64,000 nucleotides of DNA from a virus. Below, piece after piece: positions 15,228 through 29,045 of the stretch (positions are counted from its first letter, which is position 1; each line of letters begins with the position of its first letter). Position numbers and translations under genes: made by a program. Where the stretch lies: positions 1-64,000 of the IMG/VR virus record IMGVR_UViG_3300036828_000568, one strand, 5' to 3'. The notes under the pieces are model-generated. The model was not told the origin of the DNA. It searched no databases and saw nothing but the letters and a program-made list of their open reading frames with translations.

Positions 15228-15515
15228 CTAGCAGTCATAAACCTCTACCTCCGGCGGGCGTTCTTCTAGCATCTTTTTGTACTCGGGCATGTGCTGGATA
15301 GCTATGGCATTCAAGCCAGACCCTACCACTATCTGCATTCCACAGCTACGGCACTCGTACAGGTCGGCTTGCCAGAGTTTATAGGATTCCCATTCAGAAG
15401 CAAATAGTTTCCCTGGGATTGCTCTTGGCTTCTTAGGCTTCATCTCCTGTACGCGAATGCCGCATCGCGCCGGTTTGAAGAATGTGCCACATGAAACGCA
15501 GATAGGTTTCAGCAC
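15228..15515 (-). CDS. Zn-ribbon protein
   Basis: CVSC...CRSC; AGGAGG RBS. Confidence 0.65.
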   Translation of the reverse strand: MLKPICVSCGTFFKPARCGIRVQEMKPKKPRAIPGKLFASEWESYKLWQADLYECRSCGMQIVVGSGLNAIAIQHMPEYKKMLEERPPEVEVYDC

Positions 15516-16312
15516 GCCCTCCTCCTTCTGATATAGCGCCAGAACGCGAACGCGCCAAGCAAACCCGGTAATCCGGTGCCGACTATCGGACCTGGGACCG
15601 GGACTTGCTGATTTACCGGCGTAGTCATAATCAGCCCACCTACATCGCCCTGTGCAAACGGAGGGTGCGTTCCACCAGTGAATGCGAACACCTCTGTAAT
15701 CTTGAACTGTTGGCCTGGAAGCATGGCACTCAGTGTTATATCATCGATCCGCAGGCCATTGCTGAACTGGTCCTGGCCCGCGAATGATGATGTACCTCCC
15801 ACAAATGGTCCGCAGAATGGATTGGGTGTATTGCAGACTAGGACCTGGGTAGTCACTGTGTAGCCAGGAGTGCCTACTGCCGGGGTTTCGATCGTGCCCC
15901 ATTTCGTAGGTAGCGTAATCATGGGGTTGCCCGTCAACGTGCCGGTCCACGAGGCGTAGAGGTACGCTGTCCCACCTTGGGGCGGAGCAAACCCATCGTT
16001 AAAGGTAAACTCGAATGTTGGGTTCGGACCTCCTAGACCGCCGCTGAACGTGTTGCCCCCTGGAGGGATAACTCCAGCAAAAATTTGGTCGAACCCGAAA
16101 CCAGTGGGACCAGTTGGTAAAATCGGATTGCCGATAATCTGCACGTTTGGGGCTATGCCTCCAGGCGTCACAGTCCCGGTGTTGGTGCCGAGGATTGCAA
16201 TACCAGTCATGCCAGCGCCAGGATCGAAGTAACCAACAGTCACAGTGTCAGCATTTGCTGCCAGAGGGCTGAGCAGCATGGTCGTAGCTAGTAACACAGA
16301 ACGCATTTTCAT
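15509..16312 (-). CDS. PEP-CTERM-like (VPGP variant) surface protein 1
   Basis: signal peptide ...LSPLAANA; C-terminal VPGPIVGTGLPGLLGAFAFWRYIRRRR; ATG 16312 downstream of promoter. Confidence 0.8.
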   Translation of the reverse strand: MKMRSVLLATTMLLSPLAANADTVTVGYFDPGAGMTGIAILGTNTGTVTPGGIAPNVQIIGNPILPTGPTGFGFDQIFAGVIPPGGNTFSGGLGGPNPTFEFTFNDGFAPPQGGTAYLYASWTGTLTGNPMITLPTKWGTIETPAVGTPGYTVTTQVLVCNTPNPFCGPFVGGTSSFAGQDQFSNGLRIDDITLSAMLPGQQFKITEVFAFTGGTHPPFAQGDVGGLIMTTPVNQQVPVPGPIVGTGLPGLLGAFAFWRYIRRRRAC

Positions 16313-16349
16313 CGTGGGGTTCCTTTTCCTTTGCCCCCATGCCTTTTGC

Positions 16350-16378
16350 ATTTTACTTTACGGAAGTTAGGGATGCAA
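16350..16378 (-). promoter_or_regulatory. sigma70-like promoter, GTAAAG class
   Basis: minus strand TTGCAT-ccctaacttccGTAAAG-TAAAAT. Confidence 0.7.
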
Positions 16379-16379
16379 G

Positions 16380-16628
16380 CTACCAAAGTTCTCTAAGGAT
16401 CATTACAGATACAAGACCTGTAATAACAAGAAATGGATCCATGATCAAAGCGTAGGACCATGGATGAAAGTATAAACCATCAACTACAGATGCAGTAACC
16501 GCTAGAGCAAAGATTACTAAATCTATTCGGCGTGCTTGGAATTTCCATATCCTTGGCCCTATATCTATATTGAGCCAGTCTAGAAACCGGTCAAACCATC
16601 GTGGCGTTTGTGGGATTGGTATTCTCAT
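16380..16628 (-). CDS. small membrane protein
   Basis: two hydrophobic segments; ATGA-coupled. Confidence 0.6.
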   Translation of the reverse strand: MRIPIPQTPRWFDRFLDWLNIDIGPRIWKFQARRIDLVIFALAVTASVVDGLYFHPWSYALIMDPFLVITGLVSVMILRELW

Positions 16629-16903
16629 TTGATACCGTACTTTTCTTCCAGTTGTTTGATCCATACGTCTATTTCAGTTTCTTGTTTTTCTGGCATGGTT
16701 TTGGATTCTATTTTCATGCCTACACGTTTTCTTATTTCCTTTATTTCGTCTACTGTTTCGGCACGCATAATAAGATCATAAACGATATTAAATTCAATGC
16801 TTTGACGCCTTGCCTTAATTCGAACCATAGGAAATCCTGGGCGTGAAACATAGTGATAGCGTTTGCCATGGTTGTAAAACGATTTGAGGTGGGGGTATTT
16901 CAC
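16625..16903 (-). CDS. hypothetical protein resembling integrase arm-type DNA-binding domain
   Basis: HGKRYHYVSRPG...RI...SIEF...Y pattern. Confidence 0.5.
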   Translation of the reverse strand: MKYPHLKSFYNHGKRYHYVSRPGFPMVRIKARRQSIEFNIVYDLIMRAETVDEIKEIRKRVGMKIESKTMPEKQETEIDVWIKQLEEKYGIK

Positions 16904-17024
16904 AACAGGAATATCATAGAATATAGGATGGCTATTTCGATATACATCATGATATTTTACCGGAGGGGTTTGGGGAGAAGCCCCTCGCGCGTACGCGAGG
17001 GGTATTGTTTGATAGACCAGCGAG

Positions 17025-17699
17025 TTACGCTACAGCTTCACGTCGATACCACCATGCGAAACGCTTCTGGCGGAAACGAGCAAAGCCGAGCAACAGAAGA
17101 CCGACTAGTCCCGGCAACCCTGCTCCAACGATTGGGCCAGGAACCGGAGCCGCAACATCAACGCGATAATGCTCGAAGTCGGTGATAGTGCCACCGGTAT
17201 CGCTTATCGTGAAGCTGTTGATGGTTTCGCCGTTGATGGCAGTCAACGTGAAGAAGTTTTGCCCCGGCCCGAGTGGGCCGAAGAGTGAGAGCAGGTCGAA
17301 GTTGACCGGCTTGGTTCCACCACCTGGCTCGTTCGCGGTCACGGCCACTGTCACGTCGCCGGTACCTGTGATTGAGAAGATGTCGGTGGCGGTGGGTAGC
17401 ACCGTTGTCTTGTCTGCGGCAAAGACCTGCACACTCATACTGCCAAAGTCGTTGATCTTGATATCATTGCCTGAAGCTGCTCCGGTGAAACCAGTGCAGG
17501 TAACTAGGCAAGTGAAATCAACGAACCCTGTATGCTGGCCGTTGAAGCTGCCGACGACAAGATTGCTACCGGCGACATGGCTGTCGAAGTTAACGAGATC
17601 ACCTGTACTACCACCTGTGTCAGTGATGATCACGTCCGCCTTTGCAGGCATAACGGCGAGTCCCAAAAGCATGGTCCCCGCCAACAGATACTTTTTCAT
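17025..17699 (-). CDS. PEP-CTERM-like (VPGP variant) surface protein 2
   Basis: signal peptide MKKYLLAGTMLLGLAVMPAKA; C-terminal PVPGPIVGAGLPGLVGLLLLGFARFRQKR; AAGGA RBS. Confidence 0.85.
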   Translation of the reverse strand: MKKYLLAGTMLLGLAVMPAKADVIITDTGGSTGDLVNFDSHVAGSNLVVGSFNGQHTGFVDFTCLVTCTGFTGAASGNDIKINDFGSMSVQVFAADKTTVLPTATDIFSITGTGDVTVAVTANEPGGGTKPVNFDLLSLFGPLGPGQNFFTLTAINGETINSFTISDTGGTITDFEHYRVDVAAPVPGPIVGAGLPGLVGLLLLGFARFRQKRFAWWYRREAVA

Positions 17700-17889
17700 G
17701 TGCTAATGTCCTTTCGGTTGTTGCACATTACTGTTGGGGAAAGGTGATACTCGGTTTTTGTTATTTCATACACGACCCTCCTTCTTGGTTGTGTTCGACA
17801 ACCTCCGAAAACCCGGTATCGTTGTACCGGGCTGTAAAGCATTATTGCAGCATGATTTGCCGAACACAAGGCGTATTTTTTGTACAGAA

Positions 17890-18861
17890 AACTCGCGCGT
17901 CGTGGTACTTTCTTGTAGTATGGTTCGCTCACTTGCTGTGGTACACTCTTAGGTCGCCTGGCTCGCTCACGTCACAATGGTACTCTCGCCACTTTTGGCT
18001 CACTCCCGTTCTATGGTACTCTCCATATAGTTGGTTCGCTCTTCACCTATGGTACACTTGCTTCCGTTGGCTCGCTCTCCTGGTATGGTACTCTCCAGGT
18101 GATTGGCTCGCTCTTCTTCTATGGTACATTCTGCATTCTTGGCTCACTCACGTTTTATGGTACTCTCCGTTGGGATGGCTCACTCGTACAGGATGGTACA
18201 CTCAGTCAGGATGGCTCGCTCACTTTGTTTGGTACTCTCTGTCAATATGGCTCGCTTCATTCGTATGGTACATTCGTGCGTCATGGCTCGCTTACACTTT
18301 ATGGTACTCTTCAGGCTGTTGGCTCACTCCGCGGGTTTGGTACTCTTTGGTCTTGTGGCTCGCTTCCGTTCAATGATACACTCGACCAGGATGGCTCGCT
18401 CACCTCATATGGTACTCTAACCAGTTATGGCTCGCTCTTCGACGATGGTACACTCCCAATACGTGGCTCGCTCTCATGATATGGTACTCTTCGAAGACAT
18501 GGCTCGCTCTTGTGGGCTGGTACACTCGGTCGGGGTGGCTCGCTTCCTATGGTACACTCTATGAACATGGCTCGCTCAAGTTTCCTGGTACTCTTCCCCG
18601 CGCAGGTTCGCTCACCATTTATGGTACTCTTTCCCATAGTGGCTCACTCTTCTCGTATGGTACACTCTGGCATGTTGGTTCGCTCGCAGTCTATGGTACT
18701 CTCTGCATGGGTGGCTCGCTTTCATCATATGGTACACTCAGGTGGGGTGGCTCGCTCTGTCTTATTGGTACACTCGACGCTTATGGCTCGCTCACGCACT
18801 ATGGTACTCTCGTGTCGATTTGGCTCGCTCTCTGACTCTGGTACACTCACGCTTACTGGCT
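17890..18861 (-). ncRNA. TIGR-type dual-repeat guide-RNA array (about 27 x 36-nt units)
   Basis: minus-strand unit AGCCA-N9-AG(T/A)GTACCA-N9-AGCG; 27 AGWGTACCA-type and 26 complete AGCGAGCCA-type repeats alternating at 18-nt spacing; variable spacers; abuts Nop-domain gene. Confidence 0.9.
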
Positions 18862-19682
18862 TACCAAGTTCCCCACTCGGGCGGTGGTTCGATCTTATCG
18901 ATGTGCCCGAGGTGGGTTATTGGGAAAGGTTGTGGAGCATCTTTCCCAAACTCTAGCTTGTACCACACCTGATGCAAGTGGGACAAGAATATCTTAGTAG
19001 CGTACCGACGACTACGAGCATCTATCTGTGCAGGAGGCAATTTACCTGTAAGAAGATGCTTGCGTGTTTCCGTAGGTTTCTTATAGCGTGGCAAGAGTTC
19101 CCTAGCAGTCTGTGCGTTGCCGCCGTTTTCGTTGCGCTTGATTTCATATTCCTTGCGCACCTCATAGATCTTGCCGTAATAGCATTTGTCGTTGTTGTGG
19201 AATTTCATAAAGCATTGACCGATATGCCAGCACAATGTCTTAAGACCAGCATTCCAAGGGCGCTTTTCACCCTCGCCCCATTTGTCTGTGGGATCCAACC
19301 CGGCAAAGCGCCAGATATGCCCGGTGGAGGGGCAGACTTTGATGTCGATATGGGCGATTAATCCGGCTGATATTACTGGCCCAATCCCAAAAATGTTCTT
19401 CATACGACGGCCAATTTCTTTGCTGTCGCTATACCGGTCAAGCGCACTACGGAGGTTGCGTTCCAGTACATCGCTCTGTACTGCCAACCAGTTCAGGATT
19501 TCGTGTGGTTCTACCACTTCTTCAGTGGTCATAGACCGGATTTGGTTATCCGACCGTTTGCGCATTTCCTGCATGATGTAATAGCTATCAACAAGGAAGC
19601 GTGCTTCCCTATCTGATAGTGTTACCGCCGCTGTCCGTAAATCACGGGACAGTCGTTCTACAGATTCTATGTCCATTACCAT
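18861..19682 (-). CDS. tasA: Tas protein (TasA-type): IS110/Nop RNA-binding domain without nuclease domain
   Basis: N-terminal coiled coil (LVDSYYIMQEMRKRSDNQ); IFGIGPVISAGLIAHI...IWRFAGLDP...WNAGLKTLCW...YYGKIYE.RK...ARSRRYATKIFL; no DEDD/RuvC or HNH domain; AAGGAG RBS; adjacent dual-repeat array. Confidence 0.85.
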   Translation of the reverse strand: MVMDIESVERLSRDLRTAAVTLSDREARFLVDSYYIMQEMRKRSDNQIRSMTTEEVVEPHEILNWLAVQSDVLERNLRSALDRYSDSKEIGRRMKNIFGIGPVISAGLIAHIDIKVCPSTGHIWRFAGLDPTDKWGEGEKRPWNAGLKTLCWHIGQCFMKFHNNDKCYYGKIYEVRKEYEIKRNENGGNAQTARELLPRYKKPTETRKHLLTGKLPPAQIDARSRRYATKIFLSHLHQVWYKLEFGKDAPQPFPITHLGHIDKIEPPPEWGTW

Positions 19683-19963
19683 TCTCCTTTCATTGGAACA
19701 TATACTCCATTACGCTCTACTAATTGAACCGGGTTCATACCCGGTCCGACACTACGTTCTGCGCACGCCCGCACGCGCGGGGGTCGTTTTACCCATAATT
19801 TCCGACCAATGAACGTGCCTAGCTGGATTGTTAACACGCATATCCAAAACAGGCCCACTATGATTTGAGCTGCTAATTGAATTAGTAGCCCGATCAATAT
19901 CAGGGTTTCGCGCGCTAGTAGAACTAGCAGCACTCCCAGTATAAAAAAGAACACCAAGGTCAT
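19676..19963 (-). CDS. small membrane protein overlapping tas start
   Basis: hydrophobic N-terminal ~50 aa; AGGTG RBS. Confidence 0.6.
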   Translation of the reverse strand: MTLVFFFILGVLLVLLARETLILIGLLIQLAAQIIVGLFWICVLTIQLGTFIGRKLWVKRPPRVRACAERSVGPGMNPVQLVERNGVYVPMKGEW

Positions 19964-20178
19964 AGTATCACCTATTCGGTGCCCCCACTTTCGCAGGGGG
20001 CTCGCGGCTTAGTCAGAATCCTTTCAGGTATCTCCACTGCCACAGGAACTGTCCCACTATGGGGGCACCACGACAGGGCCTTACTGAAATCATAGGCGGA
20101 CATTCCCTAAACTGCCGGAGTTACTATAACCGCGACCACCGGCTGCGCGGTGCTCTTATCGAACTTAACCATGCCCTA

Positions 20179-20207
20179 ATTATACTTTACAGAAACAAGG
20201 AAAGCAA
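20179..20207 (-). promoter_or_regulatory. sigma70-like promoter of the tas/array unit, GTAAAG class
   Basis: minus strand TTGCTT-tccttgtttctGTAAAG-TATAAT. Confidence 0.8.
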
Positions 20208-20817: not shown

Positions 20818-21123
20818 TCAGGAGTCCCGTGCGTTTTCTTTTTCGACCATACCACCTCCTACAGCAAATCGAGGCAGGAACCGTTTTAAAGATCCATCGA
20901 GGATATCGAGGTGGTTATGAATTCCTAGAATATCATGCATGAAATTAAAGTCACTTGCTTCTAAAAGATGCTTTAGATGCAATGGTTTGATTTCGAAGTG
21001 AACAATCCTTAATTCTGATTCTATGTATGATGATTGAACATCACGACCATACTTCTTATACATGCGCGCGGCGCGCTCAGCAATTTGTTGTATGAGGCTG
21101 TTTTCTTCCCGGATGTTTGCCAT
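20818..21123 (-). CDS. conserved phage protein (DUF6874-like)
   Basis: PLxLxxLLxASDFNFMHDILGI...FLPRF; AAGGA RBS before ATG 21123. Confidence 0.6.
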   Translation of the reverse strand: MANIREENSLIQQIAERAARMYKKYGRDVQSSYIESELRIVHFEIKPLHLKHLLEASDFNFMHDILGIHNHLDILDGSLKRFLPRFAVGGGMVEKENARDS

Positions 21124-21400
21124 CGTTGGTTCCTTAATTATGTTGCGAGCCCTGGAGTACGGGGGGCGTATTTTCCAGGGCTCGCAGCCAAACGGAGTCA
21201 GAGATGTGGGTGCTGTTCCGTTTAACCATAAAAGTTTACAGCGTTGATAACCGGATGGCAATAATCTTTTGCGGTGGGGGCTTGTAAAATGATACAACAT
21301 GTGGTACTGTCTTTTCCCCAACGGACGCAGTGCCAGGAGCCACGTCTCGTTGGCTTAGACCTCTACCTACAATCAGGAGGTCTGTTCTTCCCCTTGCCAC

Positions 21401-26563: not shown

Positions 26564-26878
26564 ATGCCATTGACTGAAAAGGGTGAAAAAATTAAATCTG
26601 CGATGACCAAGCAATATGGTCCCGAAAAAGGTGAACAAGTTTTCTATGCTTCCAAGAACGCAGGGCGAATTACCGGGGTAGATGATTTTCAACATATGGG
26701 GTTCACTGGTGGTGAAGCCAAACCGATTAAGGATTTGATTTCTGAATGTGATGCGCTTGCAACCCGGTTAGATGCTTTTGAAAAACGCAAATCAATGCGT
26801 AAGCCTGAACAAGTTAAGCCGAGGACCAAAGACAATATGCAGCCATCTATGCCCCACCCTAAGGAACCGGGTGGATGA
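26564..26878 (+). CDS. conserved phage hypothetical protein
   Basis: GGAGG RBS; MPLTEKGEKI...YG.EKGEQVFYASKNAG. Confidence 0.75.
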   Translation: MPLTEKGEKIKSAMTKQYGPEKGEQVFYASKNAGRITGVDDFQHMGFTGGEAKPIKDLISECDALATRLDAFEKRKSMRKPEQVKPRTKDNMQPSMPHPKEPGG

Positions 26879-27990
26879 CCAAAGCGGCAGGGATCTTGTT
26901 TAAATCCCCAGAAGGTCGTGTTTTGCTTTGCCGTCGTACTGATGGGTTGGGATGGTGTACTCCAGGTGGTGTACAAAAAGATGGCGAAACAATTGAATCC
27001 TGCGCCGTTAGGGAGTGCTTGGAAGAAACGGGGTTTCTTACCGGTCATGCAGGAAGATTGCTTTGCCGTCGAGTTGCAGATGATGTTGATTTCACCACTT
27101 TTATTTACGATTGCGATGATGAATTTGTCCCTAAACTAAATCATGAACATGATGCTTTTGTTTGGATAAATCCTGATCATGCTTCTAGCATGAATTTGCA
27201 TCCTGGTATAAACATTGCCCTGCGCAAAATGAAGGGCATGAATGAATTACAGCTTGCAGAGGCTATCAGGGACGGGGAGCTGGTTTCTCCTCAATATATT
27301 GAAAATGTTATGCTAGTGGATATGCGAATCAGTGGTACAGGGTTCAGCTTTAGACCCAAGCTCAATGAGTGGGTATATCGCCGTGACACCATATATCTTA
27401 GCCCTGAATTTGTTAATCGATGTAGCGGAATTCCAGTTATTTTGGACCACCCAAGCACTCAGATTCTTAATTCTGATGAATTCTCCAAGCGAGTCGTTGG
27501 AACAATGTTTCTACCATATGTTAAGGGAGATGAGGTCTGGGGAATTGCCAAGGTTTATGATCGTAGGGCACAGATAGCATTAAATGACTTTGATCTTTCT
27601 ACTTCACCTAGCGTAGTATTTAGGGATACGAGTGTAAATTACAATATCGAAATGGATGATGGTAGTAATTTGCTGGTCGAAGGAAATCCAAGTTTTGTGG
27701 ACCATTTGGCAATTTGCGAAAAGGGTGTGTGGGACAAAGGCGGCGATCCTTCTGGAATTCGAATTGATTCCCAGGCAACTGGTGAACCCAGGGAAAAGGT
27801 TGTCACCGCAAAGCCAGATCAAGGTGGTATTCTACCAGAGCCACCTTTGCCGATTGGTGGATCTAATGATGTTCCTGCTCCACCGATGCAAAGTATTCCA
27901 CCCGGTCTAGTTGGTTTGGCAGATAATCTTGGCCGACTTACCGATAGAATTGAGAAATTCATGACTCGGCGAGACCTGATGGTCCGTTGA
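26875..27990 (+). CDS. NUDIX hydrolase fused to DUF2213-like prohead protease
   Basis: Nudix box GGVQKDGETIESCAVRECLEETG; VYR...PVILDHP...DHLAICEKG; position before scaffold and capsid. Confidence 0.8.
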   Translation: MTKAAGILFKSPEGRVLLCRRTDGLGWCTPGGVQKDGETIESCAVRECLEETGFLTGHAGRLLCRRVADDVDFTTFIYDCDDEFVPKLNHEHDAFVWINPDHASSMNLHPGINIALRKMKGMNELQLAEAIRDGELVSPQYIENVMLVDMRISGTGFSFRPKLNEWVYRRDTIYLSPEFVNRCSGIPVILDHPSTQILNSDEFSKRVVGTMFLPYVKGDEVWGIAKVYDRRAQIALNDFDLSTSPSVVFRDTSVNYNIEMDDGSNLLVEGNPSFVDHLAICEKGVWDKGGDPSGIRIDSQATGEPREKVVTAKPDQGGILPEPPLPIGGSNDVPAPPMQSIPPGLVGLADNLGRLTDRIEKFMTRRDLMVR

Positions 27991-28037: not shown

Positions 28038-29045
28038 ATGCCCACTACCGCAGCAGACGGCAGCGTCAGCGTGGATTCATTGCTCGCCGACGCCATTTCG
28101 AAGATGGATGCGCTCACCAAGCGCATGGATGCCCTGGAGACCGGCGAAAAGCACGGGACTCCGATCAAAGGAGACGACGATGACGATAAAAAGTCTAAAT
28201 CGGATAGTAAGGCAGCGTCGTCTCGCGGCGACGACGATGACGATGAACGCCGAAAGGACAGCGGCGGGAAGGCCGACGGTTCGACAGCTCCCAAGACTAA
28301 GATCCTTGACTCAGAAAAAGCTGATGCAAAGGCAGATGCAGGCTTCCCTCCGTCCAAGATGAAAAAGGACGATGATGGGGAGCTTGAAATCAAACATGGC
28401 AAGGAAAAGTCCGATGCTTTTCCGCCCAAGAAAAAGGACGATGCTGCCAAGGCCAAGTCCGACGACGATGATGACGACAAAAAGGACGACGCGGCCAAGG
28501 CAAAGTCCGACGACGATGATGACGACAAAAAGAAGAAGGACGACGCTGTGAAGGACGACGCCATTTCTGGTCTGCGCAGGCAAATTGCAGACCAGCAATC
28601 TGTTATTGAGCGGCTGCAATCGCTCATTAAACCTCGTTCCGATGATGAACATGCTCAGTTTGCAGAGGCTCAGTCTCGGGCTGATGCCGTGTTCAATGGA
28701 TTTGGGCAGCGTGCCCCACGTCCGCTTGATGGTGAGGGTATCCTCGACTATCGGAAGCGGCTGGCAACGAAGCTGAAAAATCATTCGGCGATTTGGAAGG
28801 GTGTGAAACTTTCCGTGTTGCCGGAAGAGGCTTTTGGCATTGCCGAAACCCAAATCTATACAGATGCGACAACCGCCGCCACCAATCCTGTGGATCTGGA
28901 AGCAGGTGAATTGCGCATGGTCACGAAGATCGACCCCGCGACCGGTGTGCGCTCGAACGTCTTCTATGGTAAGGAGTCGTTCGTGAAAGCGATGGGTCGT
29001 CCGGGCCGTAGGGTTGCGTCTTTCCGCACCCTTGCTTCCCAGTAA
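28038..29045 (+). CDS. capsid scaffolding protein
   Basis: Asp/Lys low-complexity repeats plus coiled coil; between protease and capsid genes. Confidence 0.75.
   Translation: MPTTAADGSVSVDSLLADAISKMDALTKRMDALETGEKHGTPIKGDDDDDKKSKSDSKAASSRGDDDDDERRKDSGGKADGSTAPKTKILDSEKADAKADAGFPPSKMKKDDDGELEIKHGKEKSDAFPPKKKDDAAKAKSDDDDDDKKDDAAKAKSDDDDDDKKKKDDAVKDDAISGLRRQIADQQSVIERLQSLIKPRSDDEHAQFAEAQSRADAVFNGFGQRAPRPLDGEGILDYRKRLATKLKNHSAIWKGVKLSVLPEEAFGIAETQIYTDATTAATNPVDLEAGELRMVTKIDPATGVRSNVFYGKESFVKAMGRPGRRVASFRTLASQ

What the first reader, a model, noticed from the sequence alone, without database searches (positions are those of the whole stretch)
17890..19682. Non-CRISPR RNA-guided system: Nop/IS110-domain protein plus a 36-nt dual-repeat, dual-spacer array (TIGR-TasA type)
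Seen: on the minus strand the 273-aa gene is followed by about 27 units of AGCCA-[9 nt]-AG(T/A)GTACCA-[9 nt]-AGCG. Two different 9-nt repeats, both AG...CCA, alternate every 18 nt around variable spacers (unit 1: GTAAGCGTG and GAGTCAGAG). The array opens with a half repeat, AGCCA, whose first A is the last base of the TAA stop, which suggests processing inside AGCG|AGCCA into 36-nt RNAs. Established (recalled, Faure et al., Science 2025): TIGR arrays give 36-nt guides with two 9-nt spacers that pair with opposite DNA strands, bound by Nop-domain Tas proteins related to IS110 and box C/D snoRNPs. So the family is known, but the spacer set and targets of this locus cannot be assigned from the window. 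Inference: about 27 programmed 18-bp targets in competing phages, mobile elements or the host.
Basis: partly seen in the sequence, partly recalled or inferred. Interest (0 to 1): 0.97.

Follow-up and report, generated by a model that had tools for sequence, protein, structure and literature searches.

The report
Phage TIGR-TasA guide-RNA array
A 75-kb soil phage carries an ordinary member of the published TIGR-Tas family: 27 two-part 36-nt guide-RNA units behind a nuclease-free TasA protein. The locus is real and kept by selection, but what it targets is still unknown.

Summary
On the minus strand, 17891-18861 holds 27 units of AGCGAGCCA, a 9-nt spacer, AG(T/A)GTACCA and a 9-nt spacer (24 pattern matches; 0 in shuffles). 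The array starts with a cut AGCCA that overlaps the TAA stop and ends with AGT and a hairpin plus U-tract.

The 271-aa protein matches solved TasR and TasH by sequence (E 2e-10, 2e-9) and by fold (TM 0.6-0.7). It has no nuclease domain, so it is a TasA.

- **Relatives:** 75 of 80 related viral loci carry the same kind of array.
- **Unit boundaries:** compensatory changes between neighbouring edge repeats place the unit ends at AGCG|AGCCA.
- **Selection:** a second soil metagenome holds the same 27 units with 3 substitutions, while tasA has 10, all silent.

No guide matches the phage's own genome. One of three guides tested matches a P22-like coat gene in 11 viral contigs exactly. That match is suggestive but not separable from chance.

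Small oddities: Phe replaces the Tyr of the RNA-processing dyad, the two loop-repeat variants alternate, and spacer B usually starts UA.

The family was published in 2025-26. This scan has already noted it 414 times, in at least 230 genomes. Verdict: a new member of a known kind, of modest interest.

The parts
20179..20207 (-). Candidate sigma-70 promoter (TTGCTT, 17 nt, TATAAT) ahead of a roughly 215-nt leader
   Evidence: Read by eye. It has a perfect -10 but only 3 of 6 in the -35, so the scan did not list it. Inference only.
19676..19963 (-). 95-codon ORF with a hydrophobic N-terminus. Its TAA overlaps the tasA ATG (TAATG). Unclear whether it is a real gene.
   Evidence: No Pfam or PHROG hit. 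No homologue in the related loci held at that point, L001-L080.
18861..19676 (-). tasA: a 271-aa solo coiled-coil plus Nop-domain protein with no nuclease domain
   Evidence: - PDB sequence hits: TasR 9mty E 1.8e-10, TasH E 1.9e-9, IS621 E 0.003.
- AF2 model pLDDT 88. Top Foldseek hits are the TasH and TasR cryo-EM structures.
- phrog_4285 E 6.5e-40.
- W150/K158 and F251/H258 align to SpTasH W203/K211 and Y289/H296.
17891..18861 (-). Dual-repeat TIGR array of 27 units (edge AGCGAGCCA, spacer A, loop AG[T/A]GTACCA, spacer B), with a 5'-cut edge AGCCA and a 3'-cut edge AGT
   Evidence: There are 15-16 stop codons in every sense frame. The array is collinear, with only 3 substitutions, in a second soil metagenome.
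17808..17831 (-). Terminator-like hairpin (9-bp stem, 6-nt loop) followed by UUUU
   Evidence: Sequence. The stem is present in both the MFE and the centroid fold. The tail has only 4 U, so the scan missed it.

Best explanation
This is a working dual-repeat TIGR-TasA locus of a tailed soil phage.

**Proposed mechanism**
1. The operon (leader, small ORF, tasA, array) is transcribed leftward to the hairpin at about 17810.
2. TasA dimerises through its N-terminal coiled coil. One protomer holds the paired ends of the edge repeat and the other holds the loop repeat, each through the CCA (box C) and AG (box D-like) motifs.
3. The precursor is cut inside each edge repeat (AGCG|AGCCA) into 36-nt tigRNAs.
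4. Each tigRNA directs the dimer to an 18-bp DNA site that reads spacer A followed by the reverse complement of spacer B. Spacer A pairs with one strand and spacer B with the other.
5. TasA has no nuclease, so the outcome is binding and DNA bending that blocks transcription or replication of foreign DNA (a rival phage or mobile element, or host genes), not cleavage.

**Shown here:** the array anatomy, the homology and fold of the protein, the absence of a nuclease domain, the conserved gene-array linkage, the unit boundaries by covariation, and purifying selection on the array.

**Taken from the literature on relatives:** 36-nt processing, dual-strand pairing and repression.

**Inferred:** co-transcription, the identity of the targets, and whether processing is autonomous, given Phe at the Tyr position of the dyad.
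For: - **Array grammar and ends:**. They match the description in PMC12045711.
- **Protein sequence:** TasR 9mty E 1.8e-10 and TasH E 1.9e-9. tblastn finds Salicola phage CGphi29, the TasH phage.
- **Protein fold:** the ten best Foldseek chains are all TasH or TasR (prob 1.0, TM 0.55-0.70), followed by the IS110-family enzymes ISCro4 and IS621.
- **No nuclease domain:** the pairwise alignment shows that the HNH part of TasH has no counterpart. The junction pair W150/K158 and His258 are kept (residues named in PMC13421893 and 10.64898/2026.08.11.744272).
- **Homodimer model:** score 0.56 against a best control of 0.35. That mark was reached by 20 of 30 proteins solved as pairs of one chain and by 1 of 23 solved as single chains. 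The runs agree in at least 65% of contacts and pLDDT is at least 80. The interface is residues 13-78, the coiled coil. TasR and TasH dimers are already solved, so the pass may reflect likeness only.
- **Linkage in relatives:** 4491 homologues and 337 viral contigs. 75 of 80 fetched loci have a 36-nt dual-repeat array beside the gene. 55 viral loci carry exactly this repeat pair.
- **Covariation over 1418 unit junctions in related arrays:** when edge position 6 is A, position 3 of the next repeat is T 65 times and C 4 times. Position 3 of the same repeat is T 10 times and C 59 times. Positions 7 and 2 covary as well: C-G 1007, T-A 265, A-T 84.
- **Selection:** a contig from another study's soil metagenome covers 17170-18995 collinearly with 3 substitutions in the 971-nt array, only one of them in a spacer. 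tasA carries 10 substitutions that are all silent in effect.
- **Function in relatives:** TasA proteins are RNA-guided repressors (10.64898/2026.09.09.750476).
Against: - No RNA data exist for this locus, so transcription, 36-nt processing and RNA binding are not shown.
- The Tyr of the SpTasH processing dyad (Y289) is Phe251 here, as in 16 of the 120 closest homologues. Autonomous processing may therefore be weakened or host-dependent.
- Box D is AG rather than the UG of TasR arrays.
- Four of the 27 units are off-length and may not give working guides.
- No natural target was established.
Confidence: 0.9

Rival explanations
1. It is a TIGR-TasA locus, but its guides regulate the phage's own genes, acting as a lifecycle switch rather than aiming at foreign DNA.
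For: TasA proteins repress transcription. Xu et al. list regulation of the viral lifecycle as one possible role.
Against: No guide matches the whole 75,158-bp genome with fewer than 3 mismatches in either dual-strand geometry. Control geometries do equally well.
Confidence: 0.05
2. It is a decaying, non-functional relic of a TIGR system. The processing Tyr is lost, the repeats are degenerate and some units are off-length.
For: Phe251 sits at the Tyr position. Four units are irregular and several repeats are variant.
Against: The array has 3 changes in 971 nt, while tasA has 10 changes that are all silent and the 200-nt spacer downstream of the array has 3 plus an indel. tasA is intact, with all family-invariant residues except the Tyr. 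A6/U3 compensatory pairs are kept within this array.
Confidence: 0.03
3. It is an IS110-type RNA-guided transposase remnant with bridge-RNA-like repeats. This is how PHROGs and Pfam label the protein.
For: There is a weak Pfam Transposase_20 hit (E 3.4e-4, at the cut-off). phrog_4285 is named 'transposase'. IS621 and ISCro4 are lower structural hits.
Against: No DEDD/RuvC N-terminal domain is present; the protein begins with the coiled coil. TasR and TasH score far better than IS110 enzymes. A 27-unit array is not a bridge RNA.
Confidence: 0.01
4. The repeat region encodes a tandem-repeat protein on the plus strand.
For: Plus-strand frames have few stops, with open runs up to 186 codons and a listed 210-aa ORF.
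Against: - Units of 32, 37 and 38 nt break any frame.
- The 9-nt repeats are conserved as nucleotides, while the spacers share nothing with about 620 distinct spacers in 73 related arrays.
- Covariation is of the RNA base-pair type.
- The open frames follow from stop-free repeats and purine-rich spacers.
Confidence: 0.01

Closest known systems
Dual-repeat TIGR-TasA systems (for example FpTIGR of Flavonifractor plautii; Faure et al., Science 2025, PMC12045711)
   Same: - 36-nt units made of two alternating short repeats and two 9-nt spacers.
- A 5'-cut edge repeat at the start, and a 3'-cut edge repeat plus terminator at the end.
- The array lies directly downstream of a solo Nop-domain gene.
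- The locus is carried by a phage.
   Different: - Box D reads AG, not UG.
- 27 units, against a usual 5-15 (mean about 16 in TIGRFinder).
- Two loop variants (T or A at position 3) nearly alternate.
- Spacer B mostly starts UA.
- I had no FpTasA sequence to compare directly.
SpTasH of Salicola phage CGphi29 (PDB 9W03, 9W04, 21KL; PMC13421893)
   Same: - Homologous coiled-coil plus Nop core (E 1.9e-9; TM up to 0.70).
- The junction pair W/K is kept.
- The processing His is kept.
- It also uses a dual-repeat array.
   Different: TasH has an N-terminal HNH nuclease and cuts DNA; this protein has none. Tyr289 of the dyad is Phe here. SpTasH uses 8-nt spacers.
TaTasR (PDB 9MTY; Faure et al. 2025)
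   Same: Best PDB sequence hit (E 1.8e-10). It aligns over the Nop domain up to the C-terminal GH...PP motif. It has 9-nt spacers and two base pairs across the edge-repeat halves.
   Different: TasR has an N-terminal RuvC nuclease of about 120 residues that is absent here.
IS110-family bridge-RNA recombinases (IS621, ISCro4)
   Same: They share the RNA-binding Nop-like domain. This is why Pfam and PHROGs call the protein a transposase.
   Different: This locus has no DEDD catalytic domain, no single two-loop bridge RNA and no element ends.

Membership tests
TIGR-Tas, dual-repeat type | Array of two distinct alternating 8-12-nt repeats separated by spacers of about 9 nt, with a period of about 36 nt | tested here: met
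   27 units. 24 pattern matches against 0 in shuffles.
TIGR-Tas, dual-repeat type | Both repeats end in box C (CCA) and begin with a box D dinucleotide that is the same in the edge and loop repeats | tested here: met
   Both repeats end CCA and both begin AG. Box D is AG rather than the UG of TasR arrays. Faure et al. note that such motifs diverge but covary between the two repeats.
TIGR-Tas, dual-repeat type | The array begins with a 5'-cut edge repeat and ends with a 3'-cut edge repeat followed by a terminator | tested here: met
   AGCCA at 18861-18857 and AGT at 17893-17891. Hairpin plus UUUU at 17808-17831.
TIGR-Tas, dual-repeat type | The halves of neighbouring edge repeats pair across the unit ends, supported by covariation | tested here: met
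   Position 6 of repeat i pairs with position 3 of repeat i+1, and position 7 with position 2, over 1418 junctions. Compensation sits in the next repeat, not in the same one. In this array, 3 of 4 A6 repeats are followed by T3 (my hand count gives hypergeometric p of about 0.025).
TIGR-Tas, dual-repeat type | The adjacent gene encodes a Tas protein with a coiled coil and a Nop domain | tested here: met
   Sequence hits to TasR and TasH. Foldseek top hits are TasH and TasR, prob 1.0.
TIGR-Tas, dual-repeat type | Tas acts as a coiled-coil dimer | tested here: inconclusive
   The homodimer model passes: 0.56 against a best control of 0.35. The mark was reached by 20 of 30 solved pairs of one chain and by 1 of 23 single chains. 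Like complexes are already solved, so this is likeness, not proof.
TIGR-Tas, dual-repeat type | Tyr/His dyad for pre-tigRNA processing on the C-terminal loop (SpTasH Y289/H296) | tested here: inconclusive
   His258 is present and the Tyr position holds Phe251. 16 of the 120 closest homologues also have Phe. Dual-repeat TaTasR aligns with Trp at that position. The Tyr is therefore not strictly defining.
TasA subtype | No HNH or RuvC nuclease domain | tested here: met
   The protein is 271 aa. Residues 1-85 are two long helices. Pfam finds no nuclease family. The HNH part of TasH is unmatched.
TIGR-Tas, dual-repeat type | The array is processed into 36-nt tigRNAs bound by Tas, which guide DNA binding | not testable with these tools
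   No listed sequencing run that holds this DNA is on record as RNA.
IS110 transposases | N-terminal DEDD RuvC-like catalytic domain plus a C-terminal domain | tested here: not met
   Only a borderline Transposase_20 match to 43 residues. No DEDD domain and no room for one.
CRISPR-Cas | One repeat of about 25-37 nt, spacers of similar size, and cas genes nearby | tested here: not met
   The repeats are two different 9-mers and the spacers are 9 nt. None of the eight neighbouring ORFs scanned matched a Cas family in Pfam or PHROGs.

The most novel reading that the evidence does not exclude
Guide 12 is a genuine anti-phage guide. Its predicted 18-bp site (spacer A plus the reverse complement of spacer B) occurs exactly in the P22-type major head gene of a family of 37-38-kb phages. 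If so, this TasA would silence a rival phage's capsid gene, which would be a natural target for a TIGR-TasA system. The published papers searched here say natural targets are mostly still undetermined.
Probability: 0.1. Interest if true: 0.65.

Novelty: new member of a known kind. Interest (0 to 1): 0.3.

Why it matters
The locus adds no new principle. TIGR-Tas was described in 2025 and catalogued in 2026.

Its use is as a clean, complete example in a full-length phage genome:
- **Spacers under selection.** It gives direct population evidence that the spacers themselves are under purifying selection. There is one spacer change between two soil samples, against about 5% divergence at silent sites in tasA.
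- **Unit boundaries from sequence.** Compensatory changes between neighbouring repeats show the tigRNA boundaries from sequence alone.
- **Annotation fix.** phrog_4285, labelled 'transposase', is in fact the TasA family.

Open questions in the field stay open here: what the guides target and how spacers are gained.

Tried and rejected
**Target searches**
- Self-targeting: all regular guides were searched against the 75-kb genome in two dual-strand and two control geometries. The best match has 3 mismatches, the same as controls.
- The guides were searched against 773 kb of related viral loci and found nothing beyond controls.
- About 81,500 spacer pairs (all phases) from related arrays were searched against this genome. 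There were no exact hits, and 1-mismatch hits were at the control level.
- The same kind of search was run against the guide-12 and guide-17 target loci. There were no exact hits.
- Exact 18-mer scans of viral contigs gave: guide 1, 0 hits; guide 17, 1 hit; guide 12, 12 hits. Eleven of the guide-12 hits lie in one homologous major head gene (phrog_283). Two control patterns gave 0 and 0.
- No other guide comes within 3 mismatches, in the derived spacer A plus reverse-complement-of-B order, in the three near-complete genomes of that family.
- Its cultured or described relatives come from a freshwater spring and a Gammaproteobacteria host.
- I therefore treat the guide-12 match as a lead only. 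Only 3 of 23 regular guides could be scanned before the cap.

**Relatives and host**
- The portal protein is not found in five bacterial genomes that carry TasA homologues. The host stays unknown.

**RNA**
- No RNA holder is listed among the sequencing runs.
- Rfam and tRNA searches of the region gave nothing.
- Low-depth contig joints inside the array have flanks under 30 nt. I set them aside as repeat artefacts.

**Other checks**
- Look-alike spacers are only marginally above column shuffles.
- The 95-codon upstream ORF has no homologue beside other tasA genes.

Full report
**Observation**

Read on the minus strand, the stretch after the TAA stop at 18863-18861 is a strict alternation of two 9-mers every 18 nt, AGCGAGCCA and AG(T/A)GTACCA, around variable 9-mers. 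I count 27 loop repeats and 26 full edge repeats. A cut AGCCA opens the array, and its first A is the last base of the stop codon. A cut AGT closes it at 17893-17891.

Twenty-three units are exactly 36 nt. Unit 2 has a 10-nt spacer A, unit 9 a 5-nt spacer B, unit 25 a 10-nt spacer B and unit 26 an 11-nt spacer A. The edge-N9-loop pattern with up to two mismatches occurs 24 times in the window, all in the array, and never in 100 shuffles. The two repeats are essentially absent from the rest of the 75,158-bp genome.

About 60 nt past the array lies a 9-bp hairpin followed by UUUU at 17808-17831. The sense strand has 15-16 stops in each frame. The few stops on the opposite strand follow from stop-free repeats and purine-rich spacers. 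Off-length units break any frame.

**The protein**

The gene most likely starts at the second ATG (19676; 271 aa). Pfam gives only a borderline Transposase_20 match, and PHROGs places it in phrog_4285, labelled 'transposase'. Against solved structures, the best sequence matches are:
- TaTasR (9mty), E 1.8e-10;
- SpTasH, E 1.9e-9;
- IS621, E 0.003.

tblastn against phage records finds only Salicola phage CGphi29, the TasH phage. An AlphaFold model from 34 homologues (pLDDT 88) has the TasH and TasR cryo-EM chains as its ten best Foldseek hits (prob 1.0, TM 0.55-0.70). ISCro4 and IS621 follow.

The first 85 residues are two long helices, and no nuclease domain is present. In a pairwise alignment, the HNH part of SpTasH has no counterpart. 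The aromatic-basic pair that holds the unwinding junction (SpTasH W203/K211) aligns to W150/K158.

A homodimer model passes its controls: score 0.56 against a best control of 0.35. That mark was reached by 20 of 30 proteins solved as pairs of one chain and by 1 of 23 solved as single chains. The runs agree in at least 65% of contacts and pLDDT is at least 80. The interface lies on residues 13-78, the coiled coil. Tas dimers are already solved, so this shows likeness rather than proof.

**Relatives**

The protein has 4491 database homologues and relatives on 337 IMG/VR contigs. Of 80 fetched loci, 75 carry a 36-nt dual-repeat array beside the gene, usually just downstream. Their repeats read (G)AGCGAGCCA / (G)AGAG.ACCA or AGAGAACCA / AACGAGTCA. 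Fifty-five viral loci hold exactly this window's repeat pair. Homologues also sit in genomes of many bacterial phyla.

Across 73 arrays of the same repeat type, no spacer is shared with this array. About 93% of spacers end in G, so predicted targets in this clade would mostly have a central GC.

**Unit boundaries from covariation**

I examined 1418 unit junctions in related arrays. Edge position 6 of one repeat covaries with position 3 of the next repeat:

| Pair (position 6, next position 3) | Count |
|---|---|
| G-C | 1259 |
| A-T | 65 |
| T-A | 31 |
| G-T | 27 |

Position 7 covaries with position 2 of the next repeat (C-G 1007, T-A 265, A-T 84). The telling contrast is this. When position 6 is A, the next repeat has T at position 3 in 65 cases and C in 4. 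The same repeat has T in 10 cases and C in 59. So the paired halves belong to neighbouring repeats. Within this array, three of the four A6 repeats are followed by a T3 repeat.

**Selection**

The locus is present in two soil metagenomes from different studies. In the second, one contig covers 17170-18995 collinearly with 14 substitutions and one 1-nt insertion. Only three of the substitutions fall in the 971-nt array: one in an edge repeat, one in a loop repeat and one in a spacer. No unit is gained or lost.

Another contig of the same sample shows ten substitutions in tasA. All are silent once the two in codon 145 are read together. The array is therefore conserved far more than silent sites, which argues that the guides are in use.

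**Mechanism**

I adopt the mechanism from the literature on relatives:
- TasA, TasR and TasH bind 36-nt RNAs cut in the middle of the edge repeats.
- The two spacers pair with opposite strands of one 18-bp site.
- TasA represses transcription in an RNA-guided, reversible way.

The structural text says the first spacer base after box C sits at the outer unwinding junction. From this I derive the target as spacer A followed by the reverse complement of spacer B. This is an inference from prose, not from a figure.

**Peculiarities**

1. SpTasH processes its own precursor with Y289 and H296. Here the His is kept (H258), but the Tyr position holds Phe251. The same is true of 16 of the 120 nearest homologues; 89 have Tyr.
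2. The loop repeat has T or A at position 3 in near alternation: 21 of 26 neighbours differ (permutation p 0.003). Related arrays are almost uniformly A.
3. Spacer B starts with T in 17 and has A second in 18 of 25 regular units, against about 8% 'TA' in related arrays. It is also purine-rich.

I have no tested explanation for items 2 and 3. Growth by two-unit duplications and an extended loop repeat are untested possibilities.

**Targets**

No guide matches the phage's own genome or the related loci better than control geometries do. Exact scans of viral contigs were possible for three guides. Guide 1 gave 0 hits and guide 17 gave 1. Guide 12 gave 12 hits, 11 of them at the same place in a homologous P22-type major head gene (phrog_283) of 37-38-kb phages. 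Two control patterns gave 0 hits.

No other guide comes within 3 mismatches, in that target order, in three near-complete genomes of that family. No spacer pair from related arrays hits them exactly. Their known relatives are from fresh water. I treat this as a lead with roughly one-in-ten odds.

**Context**

The genome is a tailed phage with a tail sheath, portal, large terminase, primase, helicase and DNA polymerase, and it comes from soil. The TIGR operon lies in a leftward block next to the packaging genes. A 95-codon hydrophobic ORF overlaps the tasA start (TAATG) but has no homologue beside other tasA genes.

**Verdict**

This is a new member of a known, published kind. This scan has already noted the kind 414 times, in at least 230 genomes. 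Interest is modest. The value added here is the selection and covariation evidence and one untested target lead.

Noticed in passing
window 15509-17699 (-): Two ORFs (280 and 224 aa) just downstream of the array begin with signal-peptide-like hydrophobic N-termini. Neither has a Pfam or PHROG hit. They may be host-derived surface proteins and a clue to the host.
   Followed up: partly
window 20818-21321 (-); L002 5738-5965: A DUF6874 gene lies about 850 nt upstream of the tasA operon. A homologue (49% identity) sits directly upstream of tasA in L002, a related phage locus with a 41-unit array of the same edge repeat and a near-identical loop repeat. It was not seen in the other loci.
   Followed up: partly
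window 19964-20178 (-): A leader of about 215 nt lies between a TATAAT box and the small ORF. It contains GC-rich hairpins (for example CCCCC..GGGGG at about 19980-20000). It has no Rfam match.
   Followed up: partly
window 26875-27990 and 28038-29045 (+): Two adjacent ORFs match the first half (positions 1-294) and the second half (333-544) of the same PHROG, phrog_6216. This may be a split or interrupted gene. The first ORF also has a NUDIX-like N-terminus.
   Followed up: no
related loci L001-L148: In 73 arrays of this repeat type, about 93% of both spacers end in G. The effective repeat is therefore 10 nt, or else predicted targets carry a central GC.
   Followed up: partly
PHROGs phrog_4285: This PHROG is labelled 'transposase, integration and excision', but it matches the TasA protein end to end (E 6.5e-40). 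Phage annotations built on it probably mislabel TasA genes.
   Followed up: partly
L187 10108-10125 and ten homologous loci; G001-G003: An exact 18-bp match to the predicted guide-12 target lies inside the P22-type major head gene of a family of 37-38-kb phages (GC 47%).
   Followed up: yes
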